A DNA stretch of 64,000 nt, taken from positions 96,001-160,000 of the IMG/VR virus record IMGVR_UViG_3300021400_000027; one strand, given 5' to 3'. How positions within the stretch are numbered: the stretch's first letter is position 1; each line of letters begins with the position of its first letter. The stretch is from a virus (lineage: Duplodnaviria; Caudoviricetes). The translations under genes and the position numbers were made by a program. Positions 18,270-36,268 of the stretch are shown in pieces. Under the pieces are notes generated by a model, which saw only the letters and a program-made list of their open reading frames with translations, did no database searches and had not been told where the DNA came from.

Positions 18270-19166
18270 ATGACTACTTTTTATATGACTATTGGTCTCC
18301 CCGGGAGCGGAAAAGATTACTTAATTGAACATAATTATTCCGATTGTGTTCATATTTCTTCTGATGCTATTCGTGAAGAAGTATTTGGAGATGTGAATGA
18401 CCAGACTCATAATGTTCAAGTTTTTAACATTATGAAAAAGAGAACTATTGAAGCTTTAAAAGAGGGGAAAGATTGTATTTATAATGCAACTAATCTTTCC
18501 GCCAAAAAGAGAATTGCTTTCCTTAAAGAATTGGAAAGATTTCCTGATGTAAGAAAAGTTGCAGTTCTTAATGTTGTTCCGCCGGCAGTCGTTCTTCAGC
18601 GTAATGCTTCAAGAGAGCGTCATGTTCCTGAAAATGTTATCATAAGAATGTTAAAATCTTTTGAAGTACCTCATTATTCTGAAGGTTGGGATTTCATTCA
18701 AGTCTATGGATTTGATGGAAACTCTTCTTTTCTTGAAGATGAACTTCGGAAATTAGTAGGCGTATCTCATGATAATCCTCATCATGAATATTCTGTAGGT
18801 AATCATATGCTTGCCGCAGAATCGCATTATTTAGCAAAAACTACTGCACCTCGGCTTGATTTAATTCTTGCTTGTCGTTATCATGATATTGGAAAAGGTT
18901 TCTGCAAAACTTTTACTAACACAAAGGGCGAATCAACAAAAGACGCTCATTACTACAATCATGAAAATGTAGGGGCATATCTGTTTTTAGCTCATTCTCC
19001 AGTTGACAAAGGCAGACTTATGTATCTGAATATTGCTAACTTAATTAATCATCATATGGATTACTTTAAAGGGGAGAAATATTTAGAAAAAATTGCTACT
19101 CGTTTCGGCTCTGATTTCATGGATGAATTAGCCATAATTCATAATGCGGATATAAATGCTCATTAA
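18270..19166 (+). CDS. polynucleotide kinase (P-loop) fused to HD phosphohydrolase
   Basis: GLPGSGK, ISSDAIR, NATNL...R, RN..R; HH..V..H, HDIGK, HENVGA, HM, AD..AH. Confidence 0.85.
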   Translation: MTTFYMTIGLPGSGKDYLIEHNYSDCVHISSDAIREEVFGDVNDQTHNVQVFNIMKKRTIEALKEGKDCIYNATNLSAKKRIAFLKELERFPDVRKVAVLNVVPPAVVLQRNASRERHVPENVIIRMLKSFEVPHYSEGWDFIQVYGFDGNSSFLEDELRKLVGVSHDNPHHEYSVGNHMLAAESHYLAKTTAPRLDLILACRYHDIGKGFCKTFTNTKGESTKDAHYYNHENVGAYLFLAHSPVDKGRLMYLNIANLINHHMDYFKGEKYLEKIATRFGSDFMDELAIIHNADINAH

Positions 19167-22739: not shown

Positions 22740-23042
22740 ATGAGTATGAAGGTTTATGTAGCAGTTCGTTATGAAGATTTTGATTGTCCTGAAGTTAAAG
22801 GCTTTAGTACTTTGGAAAAGGCTCAGAAACAGCTTTATGTCTGGGGCGGACAGCGACTCTTTGATGCATTTCATCGTGCCGGCGTAACAATTGAGGAAGC
22901 TGATGAGAAAGAATTTCTTGCAAAAGATATTATGGGTTCTTGGGTTGAATATGACAAAGACGGCGGAATCGAATCTGTTTGCTGGGGTAGTGAAGGTGAA
23001 AACAAAACAGAATGTTGGATTGAAGAAGTTGAAATTGAATAA
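22740..23042 (+). CDS. hypothetical protein
   Basis: Promoter plus RBS AAGGAG. Confidence 0.6.
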   Translation: MSMKVYVAVRYEDFDCPEVKGFSTLEKAQKQLYVWGGQRLFDAFHRAGVTIEEADEKEFLAKDIMGSWVEYDKDGGIESVCWGSEGENKTECWIEEVEIE

Positions 23043-23061
23043 AACATAAGCACTTAAAAAT

Positions 23062-23100
23062 TTGATTTCTTTTTAAAAATAAAGTATAATATATATACAA
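23062..23100 (+). promoter_or_regulatory. sigmaA-type promoter (representative of about 25 similar copies)
   Basis: TTGATT-17 nt-TATAAT then ATATATACAA; near-identical copies at 23350 and 23819. Confidence 0.8.
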
Positions 23101-23117
23101 TTTAAAAAGAAAGTATA

Positions 23118-23187
23118 AAGACAGTTCAGCAACTCTTAAAAAAACATTAGCTTTTGGGGACTAATTAGTTTAAACGAAACTGTCTTG
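23118..23187 (+). ncRNA. CAGCA-stem RNA E1
   Basis: AAGACAGTT-CAGCAA...AACTGTCTT-G; internal hairpin with TTTGGG loop. Confidence 0.7.
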
Positions 23188-23193
23188 TTATTT

Positions 23194-23267
23194 GCGTCTG
23201 TAGCTCAGATGGTTAGAGCATCGCTCTTTTAAAGCGAGGGTCATGCGTTCAAATCGCATCAGACGCA
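23194..23267 (+). tRNA. tRNA-Lys(TTT)
   Basis: Cloverleaf; TCGCT-ctTTTaa-AGCGA. Confidence 0.9.
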
Positions 23268-23271
23268 CTAT

Positions 23272-23340
23272 GGAGATGCAGCAGGATATTTATTTATAAA
23301 TTTGAATCTGCATGAGGGTCAAATCCTTCCATCTCCACCA
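23272..23340 (+). ncRNA. truncated tRNA-like RNA with CCA
   Basis: GGAGATG/CATCTCC-ACCA acceptor and T-like arm; no recognisable D or anticodon arm. Confidence 0.55.
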
Positions 23341-23407
23341 TTTAAAAAATTGACTTTTAATTAAAAATTGTATATAATATATATACAATTTAAAAAGAAA
23401 TTTAAAT

Positions 23408-23478
23408 TGCCCGTTCGTCTAAAGGTAGGACAGCAGTTTTTGGCACTGCTGATAGGAGTTCGATTCTCTTACGGGCAA
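23408..23478 (+). tRNA. tRNA-Gln(TTG)
   Basis: TGCCCGT/ACGGGCA acceptor; GCAGT-ttTTGgc-ACTGC. Confidence 0.9.
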
Positions 23479-23486
23479 TCATAAAT

Positions 23487-23561
23487 GCAGGGAGAGCTTA
23501 TTAGGTACAAGCACTCGCCTTATAAGCGAGAGATAGTCGGGTTCAAATCCCACGCCCTGTA
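23487..23561 (+). tRNA. tRNA-Ile(TAT)
   Basis: CTCGC-ctTATaa-GCGAG; bulged T stem. Confidence 0.8.
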
Positions 23562-23563
23562 TA

Positions 23564-23635
23564 AAGACAGTTCAGCAACTCTTTTTAAGAACATTAGTAT
23601 TTGGGAACTGATTAGTTTAAAATGAAACTGTCTTG
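23564..23635 (+). ncRNA. CAGCA-stem RNA E2 (paralog of E1)
   Basis: Same stem as E1; internal loop ttTGGga. Confidence 0.7.
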
Positions 23636-23641
23636 TTATTT

Positions 23642-23714
23642 GCTCCCATAGCTTAGTTGGTAAAGCATCACACTTTTAATGTGAGGAGCGAGAGTTCGAG
23701 TCTCTCTGGGGGCA
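23642..23714 (+). tRNA. tRNA-Lys(TTT)
   Basis: TCACA-ctTTTaa-TGTGA. Confidence 0.9.
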
Positions 23715-23718
23715 TTAT

Positions 23719-23806
23719 GGAGATGTGGCAGAGTTGGTCGAATGCGGCACACTGCTAATGTGTTTGTCATTAAGTTGGCACGAAGGTTCGAATCCTTTCA
23801 TCTCCG
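23719..23806 (+). tRNA. tRNA-Ser(GCT)
   Basis: GCACA-ctGCTaa-TGTGT, long variable arm, G73. Confidence 0.9.
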
Positions 23807-23882
23807 TCAATTAAAAAATTGACTTTTAATTAAAAATTATGTATAATATATATACAATTTGATTTAAAAGTCAAATATAAAC

Positions 23883-23956
23883 TGCCCTGTGGACAAGTGG
23901 CTTAAGTTGGGAGTCTCTAAAACTCTAAGACCTCCGTTCGAATCGGAGCAGGGCAA
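23883..23956 (+). tRNA. amber suppressor tRNA(CTA), Gln-type
   Basis: TGCCCTG/CAGGGCA acceptor (U1-A72 like tRNA-Gln at 23408); GGAGT-ctCTAaa-ACTCT with anticodon at 23917-23919; T arm CTCCG-TTCGAAT-CGGAG. Confidence 0.9.
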
Positions 23957-23963
23957 TCGAACT

Positions 23964-24019
23964 AAGACGGTTCAGCAACTCTATTTATTTGATATGTGGC
24001 TTCAAATTTCTCCGTCTTG
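23964..24019 (+). ncRNA. CAGCA-stem RNA E3
   Basis: AAGACGG-TT-CAGCAA...CCGTCTT-G; hairpin with atGTGgc loop. Confidence 0.7.
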
Positions 24020-24116
24020 AAAGTTCAAATCAATTAAAAATTTGAAATTTCTTTTAAAATTTGCTATAATATTTATAGTAAATGAGAAAGAAAGCCAAAT
24101 TGAAAGGAGCAAGCCT

Positions 24117-24362
24117 ATGTATATTTCAGTTCAGTTTAAGAATAAAAACAAAGAGTTTGTTGGTAAGCATTATGACTATGAATTGCTTCCTGATGAAAAA
24201 GTACCGGCAGTTGGCTCTATTATCCGAATGATGGACGAAAATTATAATTTTGTGTGTTACGGCACAAGAGTTATGGTTACTTCCGTTAAAATGAAAAGTG
24301 CTTCGGCAAAGGTCGCTATCAGATGTCTTGAAACGACACTTGATGATGAACAGGACAGTTAA
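24117..24362 (+). CDS. hypothetical protein
   Basis: Start moved to ATG after RBS AAGGAG. Confidence 0.6.
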   Translation: MYISVQFKNKNKEFVGKHYDYELLPDEKVPAVGSIIRMMDENYNFVCYGTRVMVTSVKMKSASAKVAIRCLETTLDDEQDS

Positions 24363-24416
24363 AAATTTGAAATAAAAAATAAAATGAAGTATAATAATTA
24401 TAGAAATTAAAGAAAT

Positions 24417-24490
24417 GGGAGAGTAGCTCAGTCGGTGGTAGCAAACGGCTGTTAACCGTTAGGTCAAGGGTTCGAGTCCCTTCTCTCCCG
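24417..24490 (+). tRNA. tRNA-Asn(GTT)
   Basis: AACGG-ctGTTaa-CCGTT. Confidence 0.9.
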
Positions 24491-24500
24491 TTATTTAAAT

Positions 24501-24573
24501 GGGGTTGTAGTTCAGTTGGGAGAACGTTTGTCCTGCAAACAAAAGGTCGTGGGTTCGATTCCCACCTTCTCCA
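24501..24573 (+). tRNA. tRNA-Ala(TGC), atypical
   Basis: G3-U70; loop ccTGCaa (C33); two U-U acceptor mismatches. Confidence 0.75.
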
Positions 24574-24577
24574 CTTT

Positions 24578-24654
24578 GGGAACGTAGCTTAGTTGGTAAA
24601 AGCACTCGGCTGATAACCGAGAGACCAGCGGTTCGAGTCCGCTCGTTCCCACCA
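24578..24654 (+). tRNA. tRNA-Ile(GAT)
   Basis: CTCGG-ctGATaa-CCGAG; encoded CCA. Confidence 0.9.
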
Positions 24655-24657
24655 AAT

Positions 24658-24731
24658 GCGGAATTGGTGTAATGGTAGCATTTCTGCCTTCCAAGCAGAC
24701 AGTGGGGGTTCAAATCCCCTATTCCGCTCCA
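24658..24731 (+). tRNA. tRNA-Gly(TCC)
   Basis: TCTGC-ctTCCaa-GCAGA; CCA. Confidence 0.9.
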
Positions 24732-24733
24732 AT

Positions 24734-24818
24734 GGGTAAGTATGCAAACTGGTGAAGCGAGCTGTCTGTAAAACAGTTGCCATTGGCGTTGTAGGTTCGA
24801 GTCCTACCTTACCCACCA
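24734..24818 (+). tRNA. tRNA-Tyr(GTA)
   Basis: GCTGT-ctGTAaa-ACAGT, long variable arm, CCA. Confidence 0.9.
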
Positions 24819-24820
24819 TT

Positions 24821-25034
24821 AAGACAGTTACAGCAACTTCACATAGAAAAGATATTTATTTAGTAAATTTAGTTTGTGGAGTTCTCCCGTGATGTGATAG
24901 GGAGAAAGAATTAAAGTTCGCACTCAACTATAAAGTGCAATAAAAATTTATTTTCGCCGTATAGGTGGCGGAGTTGTTTCGCCGCCGGCGGGTTTCCCTT
25001 GACCTTATAAGGAATTTAAATTTTAGCTGTCTTG
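24821..25034 (+). ncRNA. CAGCA-stem RNA E4 (long, multi-hairpin cargo)
   Basis: AAGACAGTTA-CAGCAA...TAGCTGTCTT-G enclosing about 190 nt with at least four hairpins. Confidence 0.65.
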
Positions 25035-25440
25035 CATAGGTCGCCTAAATAAAGGCTTACCCTTTAAAGTTAAATTTATGCATGGTTTCAGGAAACCGAA
25101 AAATCCGAATCGAAGTTGAGCCGCCATTCAACTTCGTCCTGTGGCGGCAGGTTTTGAGGGTGGAGACCTTTTAAACTCCCGTTTGACGAACGTTATTAAA
25201 GTCTGACAGATGACATAATATTGCTCTAAATAGCCTCATCTAAGAATGGAATTTGAGCAGGTTAGAGTTTATCCTTAAAGCCAACCGGTTGAAAGTCCGT
25301 TGGACGGTAATAATCGTCCAAAGAATGGGAACTATTTGCTGACCTTCACGTGGTGTTTCTGAGTTTGGCTAACAGCAAAAAGTGATACTCGGCTTTATAG
25401 TTGAGAAAGTTATCCGAGTTAAACGCTTCTCAACAAAATT
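25035..25440 (+). ncRNA. candidate large structured ncRNA
   Basis: ORF-free, GC-richer, many helices and two apparent pseudoknots. Confidence 0.55.
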
Positions 25441-25452
25441 TATTAGATAGGA

Positions 25453-26037
25453 GTGATAACTTTGGTTGGAAATTGGGACATTAATGTTGTTGTAGGTAAG
25501 CTTCCGCAGAAAGTTGCTACTGCTTTTGCAAATCTTGGTGAAACAATTATTGGAGCAACATATACTCCAATTGCATATATTGGTTCACAGATTGTGAATG
25601 GAGTAAATCATGCGGTATTGGCTGAACAGACAATTATTACCGGCAGAGATACAAAGAATATCGTCTTAATTATTTTTAATGAAAAACCAGAGGGTGTTTC
25701 GTTAGTTAATATTGAGAGAGTTGTTGAAGGCGGTTTGGAACTCGGCGGAACAAAAATTGATGTAAAAACTGAAATTCCAGAAGATGCTCAGTCTGCATTC
25801 AATGAAGCAATTGGTAGCTTTGTTGGTTCTACAGTAGAACCCTTTGCATTAGTTGCAACTCAGGTTACAAAAGGTACGGACTACATCTTTGTAGCAACTG
25901 TTAAGCCTTTGGCACTTGAAGCAAAAGCAACTGTTGCTCTGGTTACGGTGAATACTCTTGAAAAGAGAATTTCCTTTATTGATGTGATTCAGCCGAATCT
26001 TAATAAAGCAAGTCTTGGATATGCTTTTACTTGGTAA
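25453..26037 (+). CDS. protein with internally duplicated domain (cystatin-like QxxxG motifs)
   Basis: PIAYIGSQIVNGVNH and PFALVATQVTKGTDY halves. Confidence 0.6.
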   Translation: MITLVGNWDINVVVGKLPQKVATAFANLGETIIGATYTPIAYIGSQIVNGVNHAVLAEQTIITGRDTKNIVLIIFNEKPEGVSLVNIERVVEGGLELGGTKIDVKTEIPEDAQSAFNEAIGSFVGSTVEPFALVATQVTKGTDYIFVATVKPLALEAKATVALVTVNTLEKRISFIDVIQPNLNKASLGYAFTW

Positions 26038-26134
26038 TAGGGAGATTAAATTCTCCCCTACCAATTAAAAATTTGAAATTTCTTTTAAAATTTGCTATAA
26101 TATTTATAGTAAATGAGAAAGAGATAAAAAAAAT

Positions 26135-26210
26135 AGCGGAGTGGAGCAGTTGGTAGCTCGCAAGATTCATTATCTTGAGGTCGTAGGTTCAAGTCCTGCC
26201 TCCGCAACCA
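26135..26210 (+). tRNA. tRNA-Met(CAT), initiator-like
   Basis: 1:72 mismatch; CAAGA-ttCATta-TCTTG; CCA. Confidence 0.85.
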
Positions 26211-26217
26211 GCACTTA

Positions 26218-26348
26218 AAGATACGTACAGCAAACCACTTAGCTTAGGAATTTTAATCCCCGTGATGCAGGTTCGAGTCCTGTCTTTACAGTCTTTACTG
26301 TAAAGTAGCTTAATTGGCAGAGCAGGTAAATGCAAACAACGTATCTTG
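26218..26348 (+). ncRNA. CAGCA-stem RNA E5 with circularly permuted tRNA-Lys(TTT)
   Basis: AAGATACGT/ACGTATCTT stem; order is anticodon loop, T arm, acceptor hairpin, D arm. Confidence 0.8.
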
Positions 26349-26354
26349 TTAAAT

Positions 26355-26429
26355 GCCTCATTAGCTTAGATGGTCGAAAGCACCCGACTCTTAATCGGGG
26401 GAGCATGGGTTCAAATCCCATATGGGGTA
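26355..26429 (+). tRNA. tRNA-Lys(CTT)
   Basis: CCCGA-ctCTTaa-TCGGG. Confidence 0.9.
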
Positions 26430-26433
26430 CTAT

Positions 26434-26510
26434 GGCGGTGTAGTTCAGTAGTGTAGAACATCGGACTGTCACTCCGAAGGTCGCCGGTTCGAGTCCGGTC
26501 ATCGTCGCCA
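26434..26510 (+). tRNA. tRNA-Asp(GTC)
   Basis: TCGGA-ctGTCac-TCCGA; GCCA end. Confidence 0.9.
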
Positions 26511-26512
26511 TA

Positions 26513-26636
26513 AAGACACATCAGCAAAACAATTCTTTTGCATTGGGAGCATGAGTTAGAGGTTCGATTCCTCTATCCACGACCAAATTATACTGTGGAT
26601 TGGTGAAATGGTATCACGCATTATAAGTGTGTCTTG
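26513..26636 (+). ncRNA. CAGCA-stem RNA E6 with circularly permuted tRNA-Pro(TGG)
   Basis: AAGACACA/TGTGTCTT stem; 3' half ending ACCA precedes the 5' half. Confidence 0.8.
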
Positions 26637-26642
26637 TATTTT

Positions 26643-26715
26643 GCTTCTGTAGCACAATTGGTAGTGCATCTCACTTGTAATGAGAGGGTTGTAGGTTCGA
26701 GTCCTATCAGAAGCT
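26643..26715 (+). tRNA. tRNA-Thr(TGT)
   Basis: TCTCA-ctTGTaa-TGAGA. Confidence 0.9.
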
Positions 26716-26719
26716 CTAT

Positions 26720-26793
26720 GCCGGTGTAGCTCAGTTGGTAGTAGCGTATGCCTGAAGAGCATAGCGTCAGAGGTTCGATTCCTCTCGCCGGCA
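26720..26793 (+). tRNA. tRNA-Phe(GAA)
   Basis: TATGC-ctGAAga-GCATA. Confidence 0.9.
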
Positions 26794-26799
26794 TCAGTT

Positions 26800-26926
26800 A
26801 AGATTCGTCAGCAGAAGTATTTCAAAATTTACATACACCAAATGCCAGTATGTATGGTGTAACGGTAGCACACTCACCAGTTAAGTGAGAGGTAAAGGTT
26901 CAACTCCTTTGGCAGAACGAATCTTG
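26800..26926 (+). ncRNA. CAGCA-stem RNA E7 with permuted tRNA-Asn(GTT)-like cargo
   Basis: AAGATTCGT/ACGAATCTT stem; TACATAC-ACCA precedes GTATGTA plus D, anticodon and T arms. Confidence 0.75.
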
Positions 26927-26930
26927 TTTC

Positions 26931-27002
26931 CGCCCTATCGTCTAACGGTTAGGACATCGCACTTTCTATGCGAAAATCCCAGTTCGAGTCTGGGTAGGGT
27001 GA
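26931..27002 (+). tRNA. tRNA-Glu(TTC)
   Basis: TCGCA-ctTTCta-TGCGA (U37). Confidence 0.85.
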
Positions 27003-27049
27003 TTAAGCGTTATTAAAACGCAAAAATAAGTAAAAGGAGAAGAGAGGTC

Positions 27050-27553
27050 ATGAATACTAAAAAATTTTATCGTGGTAATGGTCAAATCGTAACCTACGAT
27101 GGAATGATGAAAGTAATTGCAGACTACATCATGGAAGATACGAAAAGTGATTATGAAATCACAGTAGGCACAGATAGCCAAAACCATGACCTAACAAAAA
27201 TGGTTGAAGTTATCGCTGTACATCGTGTTGGAAAAGGTGGTATCTTCTTCTACAGAACAGAATATGTTCGTAAAATTCGAGTTTTAAAAGAAAAAATTGT
27301 TGAAGAAACATCTCGTTCTTTAGAGAACGCAGAGGGGTTATTAGATACAGTTCAACTTTATTTACTCGAAAAAGATATTGATATTGACAAACTCAATATT
27401 CATTTTGTAATTCATTGTGATATTGGTCATGCCGGCAAGACACAAGCACTTATTAAAGAAATTGTTTCTTGGGTTCAGTCTTGTGGTTATGAATGTCAGA
27501 TTAAGCCAGATAGCTATGCTGCGTCTGGTATTGCAAACAAAATTTCTAAGTGA
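27050..27553 (+). CDS. RNase H-like YkuK (DUF458) family protein
   Basis: VGTDSQ, R.GKGG.FFY, ET..S, IHCDIG..G.T, IKPDSYAAS..A. Confidence 0.85.
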   Translation: MNTKKFYRGNGQIVTYDGMMKVIADYIMEDTKSDYEITVGTDSQNHDLTKMVEVIAVHRVGKGGIFFYRTEYVRKIRVLKEKIVEETSRSLENAEGLLDTVQLYLLEKDIDIDKLNIHFVIHCDIGHAGKTQALIKEIVSWVQSCGYECQIKPDSYAASGIANKISK

Positions 27554-27558
27554 ACAAT

Positions 27559-27662
27559 GCGTTGATAGCCAAGCATTAAAAGGCACTAAGACAATAGGAG
27601 TCCTTGTCGTGGGAACTTCACCCACATGGAATGCGTGTGATTGAAACTGCACACTCAACGCT
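27559..27662 (+). ncRNA. enlarged tRNA-like RNA
   Basis: GCGTTGA/TCAACGC acceptor-like stem, D-like arm, three further hairpins. Confidence 0.55.
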
Positions 27663-27665
27663 TTT

Positions 27666-27749
27666 GCCGCTGTGGTGGAATTGGCAGACACAAGGGACTT
27701 AAAATCCCTCGGAGTAAAATCCGTACCGGTTCAAATCCGGTCAGCGGCA
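27666..27749 (+). tRNA. tRNA-Leu(TAA)
   Basis: AGGGA-ctTAAaa-TCCCT, long variable arm. Confidence 0.9.
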
Positions 27750-27753
27750 CTAT

Positions 27754-27814
27754 AAGACGGTTACAGCAATCTTTAAGGATTTATTTGGTTCGATTCCAGA
27801 GGTTTTCCGTCTTG
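27754..27814 (+). ncRNA. CAGCA-stem RNA E8 (T-arm cargo)
   Basis: AAGACGG/CCGTCTT stem; TGG-TTCGATT-CCA T-loop hairpin. Confidence 0.7.
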
Positions 27815-27845
27815 AAGATTTTATTTTGAAAAGGAGATAATCTAA

Positions 27846-28460
27846 ATGAGAAAAGTTATTATTGTTATTTTATCCGTTATTGCTATTGCGACAATTGTAC
27901 TGCCTGAGGGAGAGTACGGTCCGGTAACTATTACTTCTTACGCCGCAGAGGGACAGTTTAATTCAAATGGATTACAGGCTAATAACCTTGGTATTCCTAT
28001 TAATGAATTTGTTGACGCTCCGGCAACAGCACCAATTCCTTTTGGTCAGCTTGTTGATGCTCCTATGACTGCACCAGTATCAGTTCCTTCTGATAAGTTT
28101 GTTGATGCTCCTATGACTGCACCGTCAGCGGAGACTTCTATGACTACAACTACAAAAGAAACTACAACTACAGCTGAACTTGTGTCAGCTCCAGAAACCG
28201 CACCAGAAGTTTTAGATACTGCTCCAGCGACAGCACCAACAACTACTACCTCAACCACTACTTCAACTACTACTACAGTAACAACCACCACAACTACAGC
28301 TACCACTTCGGCTTCAACCGTTTTGGCAGATATGAAGTGTGCAGATGGTGCTGAATTAAGAGTAAGTGAAGATTCAAACGGTAAGGTTGAAATTGAAGCA
28401 TCAGGCGAAAAAGACTTACTTAAAGAAATTTTTGGTTTTATTAAAGACCTGTTTTCTTAA
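27846..28460 (+). CDS. secreted Thr/Pro-rich protein with (D/S/T)APxTAP repeats
   Basis: Signal peptide, five APxTAP repeats, poly-Thr tract. Confidence 0.7.
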   Translation: MRKVIIVILSVIAIATIVLPEGEYGPVTITSYAAEGQFNSNGLQANNLGIPINEFVDAPATAPIPFGQLVDAPMTAPVSVPSDKFVDAPMTAPSAETSMTTTTKETTTTAELVSAPETAPEVLDTAPATAPTTTTSTTTSTTTTVTTTTTTATTSASTVLADMKCADGAELRVSEDSNGKVEIEASGEKDLLKEIFGFIKDLFS

Positions 28461-28479
28461 GCGGTTCGCCGCTTAATAT

Positions 28480-28553
28480 CGGGGATTACGTCAATTTGGT
28501 AGACGGCGGCATTTGGGATGCCGAGGCTGCGAGTTCGAGTCTCGCATCTCCGA
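28480..28553 (+). tRNA. tRNA-Pro(TGG)
   Basis: CGGCA-ttTGGga-TGCCG. Confidence 0.9.
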
Positions 28554-28643
28554 CTAAAGCACCTAATGCGGATATGGTGCTATATTTTCATGGTGATTAC
28601 CTCCTAAAATTGCCAAAGTTGTGTCGCTTGGCGGCACAACGCT

Positions 28644-28722
28644 GGGGATATGGTGGAATGGCAGACACGCTTGCCTTAGAAGCAAGTGCTTCGGCGTGAG
28701 AGTTCAAGTCTCTCTATCCCCA
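28644..28722 (+). tRNA. tRNA-Leu(TAG)
   Basis: CTTGC-ctTAGaa-GCAAG, long variable arm. Confidence 0.9.
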
Positions 28723-28729
28723 CTAAAAT

Positions 28730-28802
28730 GGAGTCGGTAGTGTAATGGCTAACACGTCAGTTTGTGGCACTGATAATGAGAGTTCGATTCTCTCCCTTCT
28801 CC
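28730..28802 (+). tRNA. tRNA-His(GTG)
   Basis: Encoded G-1:C73; TCAGT-ttGTGgc-ACTGA; two acceptor mismatches. Confidence 0.85.
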
Positions 28803-28891
28803 CTTGGTGCGCAGGTTTGATGCAATGCGACATGTTCAGAAATCCGTGTACTATAGAGTATTCCTGCACAATCTATAGCGGTATTTAATTA

Positions 28892-29037
28892 AAGACACTA
28901 CAGCAAAACATTTCTAAATGGACTGTAAATCCGTTGGGGAAGTCCCTTCGTAGGTGCAAATCCTATCCTCGCCCACCAAAATATGGGCGAGTAGCCAAGT
29001 AGACAAAGGCGACGGACCATATATTAAAAGTGTCTTG
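28892..29037 (+). ncRNA. CAGCA-stem RNA E9 with circularly permuted tRNA-Tyr(GTA)
   Basis: AAGACACT/AGTGTCTT stem; GGA-ctGTAaa-TCCGT, variable arm, T arm, CTCGCCC-ACCA, linker, GGGCGAG, D arm. Confidence 0.85.
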
Positions 29038-29041
29038 AAAT

Positions 29042-29122
29042 GTGGAGATGCCAGAGTGGTTGATTGGGACGGACTGCAACTCCGTTGCGTAAGCCTCGTC
29101 GGTTCGAATCCGACTCTCCACT
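29042..29122 (+). tRNA. tRNA-Cys(GCA) with long variable arm
   Basis: ACGGA-ctGCAac-TCCGT; U73; 12-nt variable region. Confidence 0.8.
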
Positions 29123-29127
29123 TTAAT

Positions 29128-29201
29128 CTCCCCTTAGCTCAATTGGATAGAGCAACGGATTTCTAATCCGTAGGTTGAAGGTTCGAGTCCTTCAGGGGAG
29201 G
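29128..29201 (+). tRNA. tRNA-Arg(TCT)
   Basis: ACGGA-ttTCTaa-TCCGT. Confidence 0.9.
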
Positions 29202-29209
29202 CTTAATTT

Positions 29210-29283
29210 GTCGCTTTAGTTCAATTGGATTAGAACCTCCGGCTACGAACCGGAAGATACGAGTTCAAGTCTTGTAGGCGGCG
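29210..29283 (+). tRNA. tRNA-Arg(ACG)
   Basis: TCCGG-ctACGaa-CCGGA. Confidence 0.9.
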
Positions 29284-29287
29284 TAAA

Positions 29288-29361
29288 AAGACAACTTACA
29301 GCAATTTAATTATATCGCCTTAAGTTTTTCCTGTACAGTGATATGTCAGGGTGTTGTCTTG
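29288..29361 (+). ncRNA. CAGCA-stem RNA E10
   Basis: AAGACAAC-TTA-CAGCAA...GTTGTCTT-G. Confidence 0.7.
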
Positions 29362-29369
29362 ATTTAATT

Positions 29370-29458
29370 GGAAGATTAATTCAGCCGGCGCTGAACCTCG
29401 TCTTGAAAACGAGTGGTGCGGTGAAACGCATGGGGCTCGACACCTCAGTCTTCCGCCA
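29370..29458 (+). tRNA. tRNA-Ser(TGA)
   Basis: CTCGT-ctTGAaa-ACGAG, long variable arm, GCCA; atypical T loop. Confidence 0.85.
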
Positions 29459-29466
29459 CTAACCTT

Positions 29467-29501
29467 AAGACCTTACGGCATTAAATTAAATAAAGGTCTT
29501 G
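29467..29501 (+). ncRNA. minimal CAGCA-stem variant E11
   Basis: AAGACCTT-A-CGGCA...AAGGTCTT-G just upstream of the Ro-like gene promoter. Confidence 0.5.
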
Positions 29502-29607
29502 AAGTTAAAATAATTTGAGTTTTTAAAAATTTTTTGCTATAATATTTATAGTGAAAAGGAAAAAGTCCGAATTAACTTTAACTTACAATGAAAAGGAGAA
29601 ATGTGTA

Positions 29608-31077
29608 ATGAGTTTTGTAAATCAGTTCAAAAGAATGTCCGATATGACCACCACTGAAAATGGAGGTCTGGCTTATAAGTCTACCGGCTCTGACCTTTTA
29701 TCTCTGTTCGCTAATATTGGCGGTATGAGAGATAGAAATGATAGCGATATTATTTCTGCTTGGAAACTCGCAAGAAAGGAAGATAAGCTGTTAGCAGATA
29801 ACCTTATTCTCTATTCTCGTGATATTCGTAATGCCGGACTTGGTGAGCGTAGAATTGGCAGACTCTTATTAAAAGAGCTTGCTATGGTTGACCCTCGTAA
29901 GGTAGAGCGTAATCTCCAGAAGATTGTCGATGCCGGCAGATGGGACGACTTGTTCGTATTTGAGGGAACTCCTGCATGGGATGAAACCGTTCGCTTTATC
30001 CAGAATCAGTTCCGTACTGATGTCAATGGAATGAAGAAGAACGAACCTATTTCTCTGCTTGCAAAGTGGCTTCCTTCTATTAACGCTTCTTCTGAAAAGA
30101 CTAAGCGTCTGGCTCGTACTTTCTGCACCTTGTTCAGCTTAACTCCTCGTACTTATCGTAAGAGCCTCTCCGCTATGCGTAAGTACATTGATGTAGTTGA
30201 ACGTAAGATGTCAGCTGGTCAGTGGAATGAAATTAACTTTGAAACTGTTCCTTCTGTTGCAATGTCTCGTTATATTGCAACCTACAATAAGCGTTGTCAG
30301 GAACGCTTTGCCGAATACAAGGCTTCCCTTGAAAAGGGCGAAGCTAAGGTTAATGCGGCAACTCTCTTCCCTTATGACATTGCTTTAAAGTTCATAGGCA
30401 ATTGTAATGGCTATGGTTGTAGATATACTCATCTGGATGCAGTTGATGAAGCACAGTGGAAGGCTCTGCCTAACTATGTTTCTGACGAGTTCGATGTAGT
30501 TGTAATGGCAGACGTATCCGGCTCTATGTACTCTTCTGATAGTCGTCCTATGGCAACTTCTATTGGTCTGGCAACTTACTTTGCTCAACGCAACAAAGGT
30601 GCATATCACAATATGTATTTAAGTTTCACTGACCGTCCTCATTTCATTACCCTGCGTGACGAGATGTCGCTGGAAGATTGCTTAAAATACGTGTTAAAGG
30701 AGGGTGTTGGCTACAATACTGACCTTGACCTTGCTTTTGAAGCTATCTATAAAGTGGCAAGCACTGCCGGAGAAGCACCTAAAGCTCTTGTCATTATTAG
30801 TGATATGGAGATTGATTCTTTCTGCGGAGAGAATTATGAATCCATTGCTCAAAAATGGCAGAGAATTTACGCTAAAGCTGGATTAACTGCTCCTAAGTTA
30901 ATTTGGTGGAATGTAGATTCCAGAGAGGGTAGAGTTCTCGCTCGTCAGGACGAGAATGTAGGATTTGTATCAGGTTATGGTGTCGGTCCGTTCAAGAATC
31001 TTCAATCTCTGATTGAAAAAGACGCTTATACCGCAATGGTAGAAATCCTCTCTCAGGACGCTTTCACTTGGAATTAA
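29608..31077 (+). CDS. Ro60/TROVE-related protein with C-terminal vWA (DUF2828-type)
   Basis: TTTENGG..Y.ST, RDIR..G.GER, GRWDDL, LLAKWLPS, MIDAS ADVSGSM, ISDME, WNV; start moved to ATG 29608 after AAGGAG. Confidence 0.8.
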   Translation: MSFVNQFKRMSDMTTTENGGLAYKSTGSDLLSLFANIGGMRDRNDSDIISAWKLARKEDKLLADNLILYSRDIRNAGLGERRIGRLLLKELAMVDPRKVERNLQKIVDAGRWDDLFVFEGTPAWDETVRFIQNQFRTDVNGMKKNEPISLLAKWLPSINASSEKTKRLARTFCTLFSLTPRTYRKSLSAMRKYIDVVERKMSAGQWNEINFETVPSVAMSRYIATYNKRCQERFAEYKASLEKGEAKVNAATLFPYDIALKFIGNCNGYGCRYTHLDAVDEAQWKALPNYVSDEFDVVVMADVSGSMYSSDSRPMATSIGLATYFAQRNKGAYHNMYLSFTDRPHFITLRDEMSLEDCLKYVLKEGVGYNTDLDLAFEAIYKVASTAGEAPKALVIISDMEIDSFCGENYESIAQKWQRIYAKAGLTAPKLIWWNVDSREGRVLARQDENVGFVSGYGVGPFKNLQSLIEKDAYTAMVEILSQDAFTWN

Positions 31078-31099
31078 GGCGGTTACGCCGCCTTGATTT

Positions 31100-31314
31100 T
31101 AGGCTCTATACAGCAAAATCAATAGAAATATACATCAAATTGATTTTAGTTAAATAATTGGCATTTACCTGTAGTTGTCAAAACCTTGTAACAGGTTAAG
31201 TTACCGCACACTTCTTTTGTGTAAATGAAGTCCCTCCCGTTCCAGTTTGGGATTGTATAACTGGTGATAGTGGAATAAATTTTCTACCGAAGTCTGAGAA
31301 CAGCAAGAGCCTAG
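31100..31314 (+). ncRNA. CAGCA-stem RNA E12 (long cargo)
   Basis: TAGGCTCT-ATA-CAGCAA...AGAGCCTA-G with several internal hairpins. Confidence 0.65.
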
Positions 31315-31319
31315 TCTTA

Positions 31320-31367
31320 ACGATTCTTCAGCAGAATTGTTTCAAGAATTGAAAAAAAAGAATCGTG
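31320..31367 (+). ncRNA. CAGCA-stem RNA E13
   Basis: ACGATTCTT-CAGCAG...AAGAATCGT-G. Confidence 0.65.
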
Positions 31368-33475: not shown

Positions 33476-34399
33476 ATGAAACAGAAACATTATGTAGATA
33501 TTGAACGTTTTAAGGCTAAATATGACGAAGCCATCAGCGTTGGTGACCTCATTCATGTAAGTGAGAAAATCGATGGTGCGAATGCTTCTTTCACCTATGA
33601 CCCTGAAACCGGCACAGTAAAGGCTTTCAGTCGTAAGAATGAACTCTCTGCTGACAATACACTTCGAGGATTCTATAATTACGTTCAGAGTATGCCTCTT
33701 GATTTCGTTAAGCGAGTAGTAACAAATAACGGCAAGTGGGTAATTTTCGGAGAATGGCTTGTCCCTCATTCAGTTAAATATCCTGATGAAGCATATCATC
33801 ATTTTTACATCTATGATATATGGGACACAGAAAATGAAATCTGGTGTGACCAGAATTTCGTAAATCTCATGTGCTCTATATTTAAATTATATTCTGTTGA
33901 TGTGCGTCAGCCGGAATGCTTCTACTATGGAAAATTTAATGGTTGGGAAGAGCTTTATAAACTTGTAGGTAAAACCGCCATTGGGGCTACCCCGTGCGGC
34001 GAAGGTATCGTTATAAAGAACCAATCCGTACTTGACCAGAAGAATCGCCGACTGCCTACTTACATTAAAATTGTAAGTGAAAAGTTTGCAGAAGTTCATA
34101 AAAATAAGCCTAAGACTGTTGACCCCGAAGTGTTGAAACAGCGTGAAGCTTCTCGTCAGCTTGCGGCAACAATTGTCACTGAACAGCGTGTTCAGAAATT
34201 CCTGAATAAATTTGTTGACGAGGGTATCCTCCCTGAAGACTGGGACGAACGCAATTTCGGAACAATTGCAAAGACCTTACCTCGTGAAATTTACAATGAC
34301 TGTGTAAAGGAAGAGCCGGAAACAACTAATCAAATTGAGGATTTCGGCAAAATTTGTGGCAAACTTACTATGGAACTTGTAAGGAGTCTAATAAAATGA
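33476..34399 (+). CDS. RNA ligase, Rnl2-like family
   Basis: Motif I EKIDGAN, FSRK, FGEW, FYIYDI, GEGIVIK, KIV. Confidence 0.85.
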   Translation: MKQKHYVDIERFKAKYDEAISVGDLIHVSEKIDGANASFTYDPETGTVKAFSRKNELSADNTLRGFYNYVQSMPLDFVKRVVTNNGKWVIFGEWLVPHSVKYPDEAYHHFYIYDIWDTENEIWCDQNFVNLMCSIFKLYSVDVRQPECFYYGKFNGWEELYKLVGKTAIGATPCGEGIVIKNQSVLDQKNRRLPTYIKIVSEKFAEVHKNKPKTVDPEVLKQREASRQLAATIVTEQRVQKFLNKFVDEGILPEDWDERNFGTIAKTLPREIYNDCVKEEPETTNQIEDFGKICGKLTMELVRSLIK

Positions 34400-35146: not shown

Positions 35147-36268
35147 ATGGCACAGCAATTATTAGAGTTACAAAAATTTATTCTGGCTAATCCTTCTGAT
35201 TGGAAGGAAAAATTGCAGGCTAAACCCTACTGCCTGAAAATTCAGGAAGATGATGATTTAGTATTGTTCAAGTATTCCCAGATTGATTCTGACTTCTCTG
35301 AGACAATTTGCCGTGAAGCCAGAGGGGTTATTCTTGAACGTGATACTTGGAAAATTGTAAGATTTGCTTTTCGTAAATTTTTTAATCTTGGTGAACCTCA
35401 TGCCGATAAAATTGATTGGGAATCTGCTACTGCGACTTCTAAAGAGGACGGCTCTTTAATTTCTCTTTACTACTATAAAGGCTGGCAAATTGCTACTAAT
35501 GGTAATCTGTATGCTTGGAACGCTCCTTTAGGTGTCGCCGGATTCCAGACTTTTGAAGATTTAGCTATGGAAGCACTTTTAAAATATAATGTAGATTTTC
35601 ATTCTTTGAATAAGAATTATACTTATACTTTTGAACTTTGCTCACCTTATAATCAAATCGTATGTTCCTATCCCGATATTCAGCTTTTCCATACTGTTAC
35701 TGTTGATAATAGAACTCTTGAAGAAGTTGACGCTGAAATAGGAGTACCTAAACCTAAATTTTATGATTTAAATTCCAAAGTTGAGTATGAGGAATTGGTT
35801 AATTCTTTACCGGAAAATACTGAAGGTATCGTTGTTCGTGACAAGTTTGGTAAACGAGTAAAAATTAAGACTAAACTCTATTTTGAACTTCATAGACTTG
35901 TAAATAATGGGCATATTGATGTAGAAAAAGCATTGCAGTTAATTCTGGAAAATGACTACGAGGAACTTCTCGCTTATTATCCTAATTATACTAATTTCTT
36001 TTCACAGGTCAAGGACGCATATAAAAATGCTCTTGATTATATTAAAGAAGTAAAAAGTTGGACTACAGAGTGGGAGAGGGAAAATCTCTTTACTGCTACT
36101 CGTGAAGGATTCGCTACTGCTCGTAAAATCTTCGCCGCCGCCGTAAAAGATAAACCTATTCCTTCCCTATACTTTTTAGCTTATGACGGCAAACTGAAAA
36201 AATTTGAAGATGATTTAACTGCAAAGAAAATTTTATCTGTATTCAGAAACTATTTTGAGGGGATTTAA
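35147..36268 (+). CDS. RNA ligase, T4 Rnl1 (RnlA)-like family
   Basis: EARGVI, KFFN, KEDGSL, FEL.SPYN.IV, EGIVV, VKIK...Y. Confidence 0.85.
   Translation: MAQQLLELQKFILANPSDWKEKLQAKPYCLKIQEDDDLVLFKYSQIDSDFSETICREARGVILERDTWKIVRFAFRKFFNLGEPHADKIDWESATATSKEDGSLISLYYYKGWQIATNGNLYAWNAPLGVAGFQTFEDLAMEALLKYNVDFHSLNKNYTYTFELCSPYNQIVCSYPDIQLFHTVTVDNRTLEEVDAEIGVPKPKFYDLNSKVEYEELVNSLPENTEGIVVRDKFGKRVKIKTKLYFELHRLVNNGHIDVEKALQLILENDYEELLAYYPNYTNFFSQVKDAYKNALDYIKEVKSWTTEWERENLFTATREGFATARKIFAAAVKDKPIPSLYFLAYDGKLKKFEDDLTAKKILSVFRNYFEGI

What the first reader, a model, noticed from the sequence alone, without database searches (positions are those of the whole stretch)
23118..27814. Short CAGCA-stem RNAs display isolated tRNA parts (anticodon loops, a T loop)
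Seen: the E2 hairpin loop contains ttTGGga, identical to the loop of tRNA-Pro at 28480, and E1 has a similar TTTGGG loop. The E3 loop has atGTGgc versus ttGTGgc in tRNA-His at 28730. E8 carries TGG-TTCGATT-CCA, a bare T arm. E7 and E13, the two CAGCAG variants, both have TTTCAA just downstream. Inference: minimal decoys presenting single tRNA determinants to anticodon nucleases or tRNA sensors. The matches are short and some may be chance.
Basis: inference. Interest (0 to 1): 0.7.

Follow-up and report, generated by a model that had tools for sequence, protein, structure and literature searches.

The report
Phage Y-like RNAs displaying tRNA parts
Thirteen small RNA genes scattered through this rumen/gut phage's tRNA cluster share one conserved "handle" and each hold out a piece of a tRNA; they are most likely partner RNAs of the Ro60-shaped protein encoded beside them, an uncatalogued relative of the Ro60/Y-RNA particle.

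Summary
The window carries 13 elements (E1-E13, 23118-31367, all + strand). Each has a covarying 7-10 bp terminal stem (AAGAY.../...RUCUUG) followed by (UU)ACAGCAA.

Their cargo is tRNA-derived:
- anticodon-type hairpins: Pro in E1/E2, His in E3
- a bare T arm: E8
- whole circularly permuted tRNA bodies: E5, E6, E7, E9

Anticodon-like loops are enriched across homologues. In 34 short elements, 17 have YU-NNN-RN loops against 4.95 in shuffles (0 of 1000 reach 17).

The elements are best read as Y-RNA-like partners of ORF 29608-31077 (DUF2828/DUF7788). That protein's model matches Ro60 over its full length (Z 20.9).

A covariance model finds 176 hits beside this gene in 87 phage loci and 92 in 80 bacterial loci, all on the gene's strand. 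It finds none at E<=0.01 in 0.86 Mb of control DNA. Bacterial loci often add RtcB.

The decoy function is untested.

New here: metatranscriptome contigs from two studies carry head-to-tail joints of E7, E10 and E12. Those of E7 and E10 fall exactly at tRNA-processing sites, suggesting circular RNAs.

The handle resembles Dictyostelium Class I RNAs. The scan found this system before on other genomes.

The parts
23118..23187 (+). E1: handle RNA with hairpin cargo; the loop holds UUUUGGGG (Pro-like)
   Evidence: Stem and CAGCAA detector. Covariance model R1: 29.9 bits, E 5e-6, not in the training set. Fold.
23564..23635 (+). E2: handle RNA whose hairpin loop holds UUUGGGA, the same letters as the tRNA-Pro anticodon loop
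   Evidence: R1: 30.4 bits, E 4e-6, not in the training set.
23964..24019 (+). E3: handle RNA whose hairpin loop holds AUGUGGC (His-like); it follows the amber-suppressor tRNA(CUA)
   Evidence: R1: 32.8 bits (it was in the training alignment).
24821..25034 (+). E4: doubtful long member. It has the 5' handle and a matching 3' strand 213 nt on, and overlaps an abundant ~480-580 nt RNA (24832-25314).
   Evidence: Detector only. R1 gives only 14 bits for the 5' part. RNA contigs run across its 3' strand.
26218..26348 (+). E5: handle plus a circularly permuted tRNA-Lys-like body (loop AUUUUAA) opened at nt 28/29; the acceptor is closed by a loop without CCA
   Evidence: Rfam YrlA 31.6 bits over the whole model, below the gathering score of 69. 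ARAGORN finds a tRNA only across the joined ends. Sequence read.
26513..26636 (+). E6: handle plus a permuted tRNA-Pro-like body (loop AUUGGGA) opened at 28/29; the acceptor loop holds ACCA plus an 8-nt linker
   Evidence: R1: 21.0 bits, E 0.0019..
26794..26930 (+). E7: CAGCAG-variant handle (26800-26926) plus a tRNA body permuted at nt 65/66 (loop CAGUUAA, ACCA kept). The whole inter-tRNA spacer appears joined head to tail in RNA contigs.
   Evidence: Rfam tRNA 36.6 bits, model positions 8-63. Joint 26930->26794 in runs X4 and X17. The ends equal the discriminator+1 of tRNA-Phe and the -1 position of tRNA-Glu.
27754..27814 (+). E8: handle RNA carrying only a 3-bp T arm (UGG-UUCGAUU-CCA)
   Evidence: R1: 36.3 bits (in the training set)..
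28892..29037 (+). E9: handle plus a permuted tRNA-Tyr-like body with a long variable arm (loop CUGUAAA), opened at 28/29, ACCA kept
   Evidence: z -3.9. Sequence read.
29285..29369 (+). E10: handle RNA (29288-29361). The spacer between tRNA-Arg(ACG) and an unannotated tRNA-like gene appears joined head to tail in an RNA contig.
   Evidence: R1: 21.8 bits, E 0.0011. Loose ends in run X17 on both sides match the opposite end of the element.
29467..29501 (+). E11: 35-nt minimal handle with CGGCAU in place of CAGCAA, upstream of the promoter of the Ro60-like gene
   Evidence: Relaxed detector. Related phages have a 34-nt minimal handle abutting the ribosome-binding site of this gene.
29608..31077 (+). 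Ro60-like protein (489 aa; DUF2828 + DUF7788/vWA with an intact MIDAS motif)
   Evidence: Pfam. PHROG 850 'RNA-binding protein', 3.5e-115. AlphaFold model pLDDT 95. Foldseek and VIA-align top hits are all Ro60, Z 20.9 over 412 residues. Invariant D302, S304, S306, T371 and D399.
31096..31318 (+). E12: long member with variant stem AGGCUCU/AGAGCCU plus ACAGCAA; appears joined head to tail in RNA contigs of two studies
   Evidence: sequence. Joint 31318->31096 in X4 (side 83) and X18 (side 30), and a loose end in X5.
31320..31367 (+). E13: short CAGCAG-variant handle (ACGAUUCUU.../...AGAAUCGUG)
   Evidence: R1: 18.9 bits, E 0.0074..
27050..27553 (+). PF04308 RNase H-like (YkuK-type) protein inside the array; a recurrent neighbour of DUF2828 genes
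   Evidence: Pfam 2.1e-47. It lies directly downstream of DUF2828 in bacterial locus L261 and within the flanks of 15 of 167 loci, always on the same strand.
33476..34399 (+). Rnl2-like RNA ligase
   Evidence: PHROG 548, 2e-51.
35147..36268 (+). T4 Rnl1 (gp63)-like RNA ligase
   Evidence: PHROG 562, 2.5e-49.
18270..19166 (+). Polynucleotide kinase-like P-loop domain fused to an HD phosphohydrolase
   Evidence: Pfam AAA_33 + HD. PHROG 505 polynucleotide kinase.

Best explanation
E1-E13 are small non-coding RNAs of one family built from two modules.

Module 1 is a constant handle. It has a 7-10 bp stem formed by the two ends (general form N1N2-G-R-Y.../...R-Y-C-N2'N1'-G). After 0-3 nt comes an unpaired (UU)ACAGCAA on the 5' strand.

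Module 2 is exchangeable cargo taken from tRNA: an anticodon hairpin, a T arm, an acceptor/T minihelix, or a whole tRNA body joined to the handle at nt 28/29, at nt 65/66 or at the acceptor end.

Inferred: the handle is the docking site of the Ro60-fold protein encoded at 29608-31077. The RNAs would then be the Y-RNA equivalents of a second, sequence-divergent Ro60 lineage (DUF2828/DUF7788). That lineage works with RNA-repair enzymes: RtcB in bacteria; Rnl1, Rnl2 and a kinase/phosphatase in this phage.

Shown from RNA contig ends: E7 and E10 end exactly where RNase Z and RNase P would cut the neighbouring tRNAs out of the tRNA-array transcript.

Inferred: such cuts would leave a 5'-phosphate and a 3'-OH held side by side by the handle stem. 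The head-to-tail joints suggest that at least E7, E10 and E12 are then sealed into circles, probably by the phage ligases.

Inferred, untested: the displayed tRNA parts let the particle engage proteins that read tRNA anticodon or T loops. The most likely targets are host tRNA-cutting defence enzymes (as bait, sensor or recruiter of repair); tRNA-modifying enzymes are another possibility.
For: Family and stem:
- In the whole 179.8 kb genome the AAGAY-type elements occur only at window 23118-29360, all on the + strand.
- In a 40-sequence alignment, 95.3% of stem cells pair against 73.0% in shuffles and 30-49% when slid. Seven of 8 pairs show compensatory changes, with 77 double-change cells against 23.8 (0 of 500 shuffles reach this).

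Link to the protein:
- Covariance model R1 gives 7 window hits at E<0.01, 176 in 87 phage loci holding a DUF2828 gene and 92 in 80 bacterial loci. Every one is on the gene's strand, mostly within 600 nt upstream.
- R1 gives no hit at E<=0.01 in 0.86 Mb of control phage DNA.
- An independent pattern detector gives 237 hits on the gene strand against 6 opposite (phage loci), and 118 against 5 (bacterial loci).
- Related phages carry a 34-nt bare handle in the 5' leader of the gene, abutting its ribosome-binding site.

Protein fold:
- The model has pLDDT 95.
- All top PDB matches are Ro60/Rsr/phage Ro60: Foldseek probability 1.0 and TM 0.57-0.61; VIA-align Z 20.9, 412 residues, rmsd 4.0.
- The MIDAS residues are invariant.

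Y-RNA likeness:
- Rfam YrlA matches E5 at 31.6 bits and RNAs upstream of bacterial DUF2828 genes at 35.5-37.7 bits, all below the gathering score.
- RtcB lies directly downstream of DUF2828 in L231. It lies within the flanks of 24 of 167 loci, 23 of them on the same strand.

Cargo:
-.

RNA:
- Contigs of four metatranscriptome runs from two studies cover the region and carry the three head-to-tail joints.
- The joined 60-mers are absent from the genome and from all 285 held loci.
Against: - No binding was shown. The protein-RNA link rests on co-location and on analogy with Ro60.
- Sequence and profile searches do not connect the protein to TROVE.
- The motif differs from the Ro60-binding GNCGAA/GGUCCGA motif (PMC4201824).
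- All Rfam matches (YrlA, Class I) are below their gathering scores.
- The sequences used for the covariation count were picked by a detector that demands pairing.
- The circular joints come from assembled contigs, not raw reads. No DNA run could be laid as a control (cap reached). Reverse-transcriptase template switching on abundant stem-closed RNAs, or a strain with tandem copies, could mimic them.
- E12's ends are not at tRNA genes, so its processing is unexplained.
- E4 may not be a discrete member.
Confidence: 0.75

Rival explanations
1. One reading: the RNAs are free-standing decoys that soak up host anticodon nucleases or tRNA sensors, and the handle is only a stabilising clamp.
For: - Anticodon-type loops are enriched.
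- The anticodons are skewed to Lys UUU (9 observed, 1.0 expected), the G-U-N set Tyr/His/Asn/Asp (18 against 1.4) and Pro UGG (7 against 0.3). From my own knowledge, Lys and the G-U-N set are the classic targets of PrrC and colicin E5.
- Several loops carry A or G in place of U33, next to where PrrC cuts (CAGUUAA in E7; others).
- The phage already has normal tRNAs with the same anticodons.
- It encodes a T4-like tRNA repair set.
Against: - There is no functional data.
- The handle's sequence motif and its strict linkage to the Ro60-like gene, also in bacterial chromosomes without tRNA arrays, are not explained by a mere clamp.
- Many members carry T arms, minihelices or cargo with no tRNA likeness.
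- Lys and Tyr are also among the commonest phage tRNA genes.
Confidence: 0.3
2. E5, E6, E7 and E9 are true circularly permuted tRNA genes. The handle brings the ends together for ligation, and RNase P plus 3' trimming then open the circle at the acceptor to give decoding tRNAs, as in the red alga Cyanidioschyzon merolae.
For: - The 3' half precedes the 5' half.
- ACCA plus a 6-8 nt linker is kept in E6, E7 and E9.
- Anticodon loops are intact.
- E7 shows a head-to-tail joint in RNA.
- Two RNA ligases are encoded nearby.
Against: - After ligation the 35-45 nt handle would stay inside the anticodon stem (or between the T stem and acceptor stem in E7).
- There is no bulge-helix-bulge motif and no splicing endonuclease.
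- E5 and many homologues close the acceptor with a short loop and have no CCA.
- Most family members have no tRNA body (52 of 83).
- Normal tRNA genes for Lys, Pro, Tyr and Asn are present in the same array.
Confidence: 0.08
3. The handle is recognised by another conserved neighbour rather than by the Ro60-like protein. Candidates are the PF04308 RNase H-like protein, RtcB or an Rnl ligase, or a host RNase.
For: - PF04308 and RNA ligases recur near the gene.
- The ends of the RNAs must be made and perhaps joined by some enzyme.
Against: These neighbours are each present in only 7-24 of 167 loci. The DUF2828 gene is the constant partner by construction of the locus set, and the RNAs abut its start codon. 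This is a weak test, because all loci were chosen through DUF2828.
Confidence: 0.1
4. The elements are only processing punctuation of the tRNA-array transcript, and the tRNA-like loops are chance or decayed tRNA remnants.
For: They sit 1-8 nt after tRNA 3' ends and many are followed at once by a tRNA.
Against: - The ACAGCAA motif is conserved.
- Covariation is strong.
- The elements occur upstream of DUF2828 in loci without tRNAs.
- Loop enrichment lies far beyond the shuffles.
- In homologous hairpins the stems are kept while the anticodon letters change.
Confidence: 0.03

Closest known systems
Ro60 (Rsr) with Y RNAs, especially bacterial and phage YrlA/YrlB (Rfam RF02553; Chen et al. 2014, PMC4201824; Thermus phage phiLo Ro60 with Yrl1/2, PMC12135203)
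   Same: - A ring-plus-vWA protein fold.
- Several small RNAs encoded beside the gene on the same strand.
- Each RNA has a stem formed by its two ends with a conserved unpaired motif on the 5' strand.
- A tRNA-like module (T arm, D arm, acceptor) in permuted order.
- In M. smegmatis YrlA is cut by RNase P and receives CCA.
- Linkage to RtcB.
   Different: - The protein is not found by the TROVE profile or any sequence search.
- The motif is (UU)ACAGCAA, not GNCGAAN0-1G.
- There are up to 13 copies per genome, spread through a tRNA array.
- Cargo can be an isolated anticodon hairpin or T arm.
- Whole-tRNA cargo keeps its anticodon loop.
- There is possible circularisation.
Dictyostelid Class I RNAs (Rfam RF01414; Kjellin et al. 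2021, PMC7919456)
   Same: - About 60 nt long.
- A 6-bp covarying stem joins the two ends.
- The conserved 11-nt motif CCUUACAGCAA lies directly after the 5' strand.
- The rest of the RNA is variable, and there are many gene copies.
- Conserved ends: start AAG and end CUGU, against AAGAY... and ...RUCUUG(U) here.
- The Rfam model aligns end to end with two elements of phage locus L170 (23.6 and 23.7 bits) and one of bacterial locus L211 (24 bits).
   Different: - Class I RNAs are eukaryotic, with their own promoter element, and were reported as unique to Dictyostelia.
- Their known binder is an RRM protein (Rnp1A/CIBP), and no Ro60-like partner is known.
- Scores here are below the gathering score of 41.5, and the window's own elements did not reach E<=5.
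- Whether Dictyostelium has a DUF2828 gene could not be checked here.
Circularly permuted tRNA genes of Cyanidioschyzon merolae (my own knowledge)
   Same: The 3' half is encoded before the 5' half, and maturation passes through a circular RNA intermediate.
   Different: There the ends are defined by a bulge-helix-bulge motif and the splicing endonuclease, and the intervening sequence is removed. Here the handle is conserved in its own right and occurs without any tRNA body.

Membership tests
Y RNA / YrlA (Rfam RF02553) | Reaches the family's gathering score (69 bits) | tested here: not met
   E5 scores 31.6 bits over the whole model. RNAs upstream of bacterial DUF2828 genes score 35.5-37.7 bits.
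Y RNA / YrlA (Rfam RF02553) | Terminal stem formed by the 5' and 3' ends, with a conserved unpaired motif on the 5' strand | tested here: met
   Covarying 7-10 bp stem plus ACAGCAA.
Y RNA / YrlA (Rfam RF02553) | The Ro60-binding motif GNCGAAN0-1G (or GGUCCGA) | tested here: not met
   The motif here is (UU)ACAGCAA in 74 of 83 elements. The defining motif is taken from PMC4201824.
Y RNA / YrlA (Rfam RF02553) | Encoded within a few kb of a Ro60 gene, on the same strand | tested here: met
   All 268 covariance-model hits in 167 loci are on the strand of the Ro60-fold gene, mostly less than 600 nt upstream. The window's elements lie within 6.5 kb of the gene.
Y RNA / YrlA (Rfam RF02553) | Bound by Ro60 in cells | not testable with these tools
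   Needs immunoprecipitation or a gel-shift assay.
Ro60 / TROVE (Pfam PF05731) | Match to the TROVE profile | tested here: not met
   No match in the whole phage genome. Pfam gives DUF2828 + DUF7788 + weak VWA_2. Profile search of PDB reaches only vWA chains.
Ro60 / TROVE (Pfam PF05731) | HEAT-repeat ring followed by a vWA domain with a MIDAS motif | tested here: met
   Model pLDDT 95. Z 20.9 to Xenopus Ro60 over residues 9-472, while the best non-Ro60 rows (vWA only) reach Z 11.7 or less. DxSxS...T...D is invariant.
Dictyostelid Class I RNA (Rfam RF01414) | Reaches the gathering score (41.5 bits) | tested here: not met
   23.6-24.0 bits for three elements of related loci. No hit at E<=5 in the window.
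Dictyostelid Class I RNA (Rfam RF01414) | Short end-to-end stem, the CCUUACAGCAA motif next to the 5' strand, and conserved AAG start and CUG(U) end | tested here: met
   Alignment consensus nAGACGC-UUACAGCAA...GCGUCUUG. Compared with the Rfam consensus and with the description in PMC7919456.
tRNA (decoding) | Contiguous cloverleaf with free acceptor ends | tested here: not met
   ARAGORN and Rfam call none of E1-E13 as a whole tRNA. E7 matches only model positions 8-63. Permuted bodies are found only after joining the cargo ends.
Permuted tRNA gene (C. merolae type) | Bulge-helix-bulge motif at the junction, and removal of the intervening sequence | tested here: inconclusive
   I saw no such motif by eye in E5, E6 or E9 and made no formal search. 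The junction region is the conserved handle itself.

The most novel reading that the evidence does not exclude
The handle RNAs are covalently closed circles. They would be cut out of the tRNA-array transcript by the host's own RNase Z and RNase P and sealed by the phage's Rnl ligases. Held on the Ro60-like ring, they would present exonuclease-proof anticodon loops as baits or sensors for host tRNA-cutting defence enzymes. The same RNA-protein pair would be what the orphan Class I RNAs of Dictyostelium belong to.
Probability: 0.2. Interest if true: 0.92.

Novelty: new variant of a known kind. Interest (0 to 1): 0.8.

Why it matters
Ro60/Y-RNA particles are known from animals, about 5% of bacteria and a few phages, and their bacterial function is still unclear.

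Here a second, sequence-unrecognisable Ro60-fold lineage turns out to be very common. There were 5290 cluster representatives at E<=0.001, and 7188 proteins at E<=1e-5 among the 8000 candidates scored. It occurs in gut and rumen Bacillota and their phages, and it has its own partner-RNA family, which I found in neither Rfam nor the papers I could search.

The RNAs are modular. A fixed handle carries interchangeable tRNA determinants, with variation focused on the anticodon letters. That makes the idea of tRNA mimicry by Y RNAs directly testable, and it points to the conflict between phages and tRNA-cutting defences.

Two further leads would matter if they hold:
- Natural circular RNAs made from tRNA-array spacers.
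- A protein partner and a bacterial or phage origin for the Dictyostelium Class I RNAs, whose function has been open since 2004.

Tried and rejected
- **Self-cleaving ribozyme.** I checked the hammerhead core by eye (CUGAUGA...GAAA is not conserved among copies). The Rfam search of 22900-29600 at E<=5 found no ribozyme family, HDV-like ones included.
- **Retron-like or mobile-element (MITE) reading.** Rejected because the stems covary instead of being identical, and because all copies lie on one strand.
- **First pattern scan.** A scan of viral contigs with AAGACNNTTCAGCAAC returned only single, apparently chance matches. Those loci were reused as control DNA.
- **Sequence route to Ro60.** Three routes gave nothing: the TROVE profile on the genome, phmmer against PDB and the family profile against PDB.
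- **RtcB in this phage.** The RtcB profile found nothing in the phage genome.
- **Motif-to-stem test.** An ACAGCAA-anchored test with G-U pairs allowed had a 38-50% chance rate and was not used.
- **Bacterial scan.** It worked with a 10-sequence alignment.
- **Dictyostelium protein.** I could not learn whether Dictyostelium encodes a DUF2828 protein, or what DDB_G0281243 is (a protein of unknown function pulled down with a Class I RNA). Avesson 2011 is not held, and no paper in the library links DUF2828, DUF7788 or UCP015417 to Ro60.
- **Read coverage.** RNA contigs gave no cover over parts of 23100-23930 and low cover for most elements, so nothing can be said there about E1-E3.
- **Other joints in the RNA contigs.** I did not follow up 24078->24544, 27584->27631, or 29122->28805 with an extra C.

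Full report
**Setting**

The window is bases 96001-160000 of a complete 179.8 kb phage genome with terminal repeats. It carries 26 tRNA genes, among them an amber-suppressor tRNA(CUA), and a tmRNA. DNA and RNA runs holding it come from animal gut and rumen samples. The closest bacterial-bin relative of its Ro60-like gene sits on a 182 kb contig binned as Ruminococcus.

**The observation**

A search of the whole genome for AAGAY, 3-5 paired bases, CAGCA and a matching ...RUCUUG strand found ten elements. All lie on the + strand between window 23118 and 29360. Relaxed rules add E7 (the CAGCAG variant), E11 (CGGCAU), E12 and E13. The thirteen elements follow tRNA 3' ends by 1-8 nt, and many are followed directly by the next tRNA.

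**What the cargo is**

- E1-E3 carry one hairpin with a Pro- or His-type anticodon loop.
- E8 carries a bare T arm.
- E5, E6 and E9 are complete tRNA bodies in rotated order: anticodon arm, T arm, 3' acceptor strand, linker, 5' acceptor strand, D arm. They are opened between nt 28 and 29 of the anticodon stem and keep the loops AUUUUAA (Lys), AUUGGGA (Pro) and CUGUAAA (Tyr).
- E7 is opened between the T stem and the acceptor stem.

Across 83 unique elements of this and related phages, ARAGORN on doubled cargo finds a tRNA body in 31. About three quarters of these span the joined ends only, and six are in normal order. Forty-four of 106 elements have a T-loop hairpin.

**Is the tRNA likeness more than chance?**

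Yes. Of 34 short elements:
- 7 have a hairpin loop identical to a genuine anticodon loop from the same loci (shuffles: mean 0.72, maximum 4).
- 17 fit YU-NNN-RN (mean 4.95, maximum 11).
- 5 have a T loop (mean 0.06).

Over 293 unique cargoes from phage and bacterial loci:
- 82 distinct canonical anticodon hairpins were found against 23.9 expected.
- They are led by UUU (9 observed, 1.0 expected), the G-U-N set (18 against 1.4) and UGG (7 against 0.3).

In one homologous hairpin type the stem is kept while the anticodon letters differ: GUU, UUU, GUC, UAA. E2 shares only the loop with the phage's tRNA-Pro, not the stem.

**What the handle is**

Related phages carry the same handles. Relaxing the closing pairs shows the general form N1N2-G-R-Y.../...R-Y-C-N2'N1'-G, with covariation of N1N2.

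In a 40-sequence alignment the consensus is nAGACGC-UUACAGCAA...GCGUCUUG. On that alignment:
- 95.3% of stem cells pair.
- 7 of 8 pairs show compensatory change.
- The controls lie far below.

The caveat is that the sequences had been chosen by a pairing-based detector.

A covariance model built from that alignment finds E1, E2, E6, E10 and E13, which were not used to build it. It finds nothing at E<=0.01 in 0.86 Mb of control phage DNA that had been selected for the 5' half of the motif.

**The protein**

The ORF just after E11 (29608-31077) is DUF2828 + DUF7788 and PHROG 850 'RNA-binding protein'. Sequence methods do not reach Ro60.

Its model (pLDDT 95) matches only Ro60 proteins over its whole length:
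- Foldseek probability 1.0.
- Z 20.9 over 412 residues to Xenopus Ro60, and 15.9 to the Thermus phage Ro60. Matches to the vWA domain alone stop near Z 11.

The MIDAS residues are invariant in the family.

**Linkage**

In 87 phage loci fetched through this protein the model finds 176 RNAs. In 80 bacterial loci it finds 92. All are on the gene's strand. Typically 2-5 lie in tandem within 600 nt upstream, the arrangement known for rsr and its Y RNAs (PMC4201824).

Some phages have a 34-nt bare handle touching the gene's ribosome-binding site, which suggests self-regulation.

In bacterial chromosomes the gene is followed by RtcB or by a PF04308 RNase H-like gene. The window itself has PF04308, two RNA ligases and a kinase-phosphatase. 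Across 167 loci RtcB lies within the flanks of 24.

Rfam's YrlA model gives sub-threshold full-length matches to E5 and to bacterial members. Bacterial loci also hold normally ordered tRNA look-alikes with the handle inside.

**RNA evidence**

Four metatranscriptome runs from two studies hold contigs of the region. Three elements appear joined head to tail:
- E12: 31318->31096, in X4 and X18, with a matching loose end in X5.
- E7: 26930->26794, in X4 and X17.
- E10: 29369->29285, in X17.

The ends of E7 and E10 are exactly the base after the discriminator of the upstream tRNA and the base before the first base of the downstream tRNA. These are the RNase Z and RNase P cuts, which (from my own knowledge of these enzymes) leave a 5'-phosphate and a 3'-OH. 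The handle stem holds these ends in a 9-12 nt loop, the kind of substrate T4 Rnl1 seals (my own knowledge).

The joined 60-mers do not occur in the genome or in any held locus. This is suggestive only. The evidence is from contigs, and no DNA run could be laid.

**Dictyostelium**

Rfam's Class I RNA model aligns end to end with elements of related loci at 23.6-24 bits. The published description matches the handle closely: a 6-bp covarying end stem, an 11-nt motif next to the 5' strand, start AAG, end CUGU, and a variable rest (PMC7919456). That paper reports the class as unique to Dictyostelia. I could not check whether these amoebae encode a DUF2828 protein.

**Comparison and verdict**

The system works like Ro60 with YrlA-type Y RNAs. 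It fails the sequence-based membership tests of both the protein family and the RNA family, so I file it as a new variant of that kind.

The decoy idea survives its own test but remains untested functionally.

Earlier notes of this scan report the same handle/Ro60-like pairing, its Class I likeness and anticodon-displaying cargo on several other genomes. They agree with what I tested here, but they are not independent evidence. The head-to-tail RNA joints did not appear in those notes.

Noticed in passing
window 24832-25314: The deepest RNA contigs of all four metatranscriptome runs (mean depth 17-83) cover a ~480-580 nt non-coding stretch with no Rfam match at E<=5. It overlaps the 3' strand of E4 and continues to about 25314, so it is probably a large abundant structured RNA.
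   Followed up: partly
window 29370-29458: An unannotated tRNA-like gene with acceptor GGAAGAU/GUCUUCC, then G-CCA, anticodon loop CUUGAAA (Ser UGA type), a long variable arm and odd D and T arms. ARAGORN and Rfam both miss it. The RNA end of E10 falls exactly at its first base.
   Followed up: partly
window 23271-23340: A tRNA look-alike with acceptor stem GGAGAUG/CAUCUCC-A-CCA and a T arm, but with a CAGCAGG...CUGC hairpin where the D and anticodon arms should be. It shares its acceptor with the neighbouring tRNA-Ser.
   Followed up: no
window 27554-27665; L120 9100-9260: A conserved non-coding segment between the PF04308 gene and tRNA-Leu, sharing blocks such as CAAGCAUUAAAAG and GCGUGUGAUUGAAACUGCAC with a related phage. 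RNA contigs of two runs skip 27585-27630.
   Followed up: no
window 31076-31095: The hairpin right after the stop codon of the Ro60-like gene has handle-type ends (AAGGCGG...CCGCCUUG) but no CAGCAA. The 5' end of the E12 RNA joint lies directly after its last G.
   Followed up: no
L124 8509-8749: A composite element: a permuted tRNA-like body on a handle with a second, complete tRNA (ending ACCA) nested between its 3' and 5' acceptor strands.
   Followed up: no
L270 1285-1723: A sub-threshold GOLLD RNA match (74 bits, gathering score 150) with an embedded tRNA, a few hundred bases upstream of a bacterial-bin DUF2828 gene and its handle RNA.
   Followed up: no
L120 10020-10030; L124 7750-8060: Related phages have in-frame TAG codons inside clearly homologous genes. 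This fits amber recoding and the suppressor tRNA(CUA) at window 23883-23956.
   Followed up: no
window 29122 -> 28805: One RNA contig joins the 3' end of tRNA-Cys, plus one extra C, back to the base after tRNA-His. This is a possible 318-nt head-to-tail product spanning an unknown RNA, E9 and tRNA-Cys.
   Followed up: no
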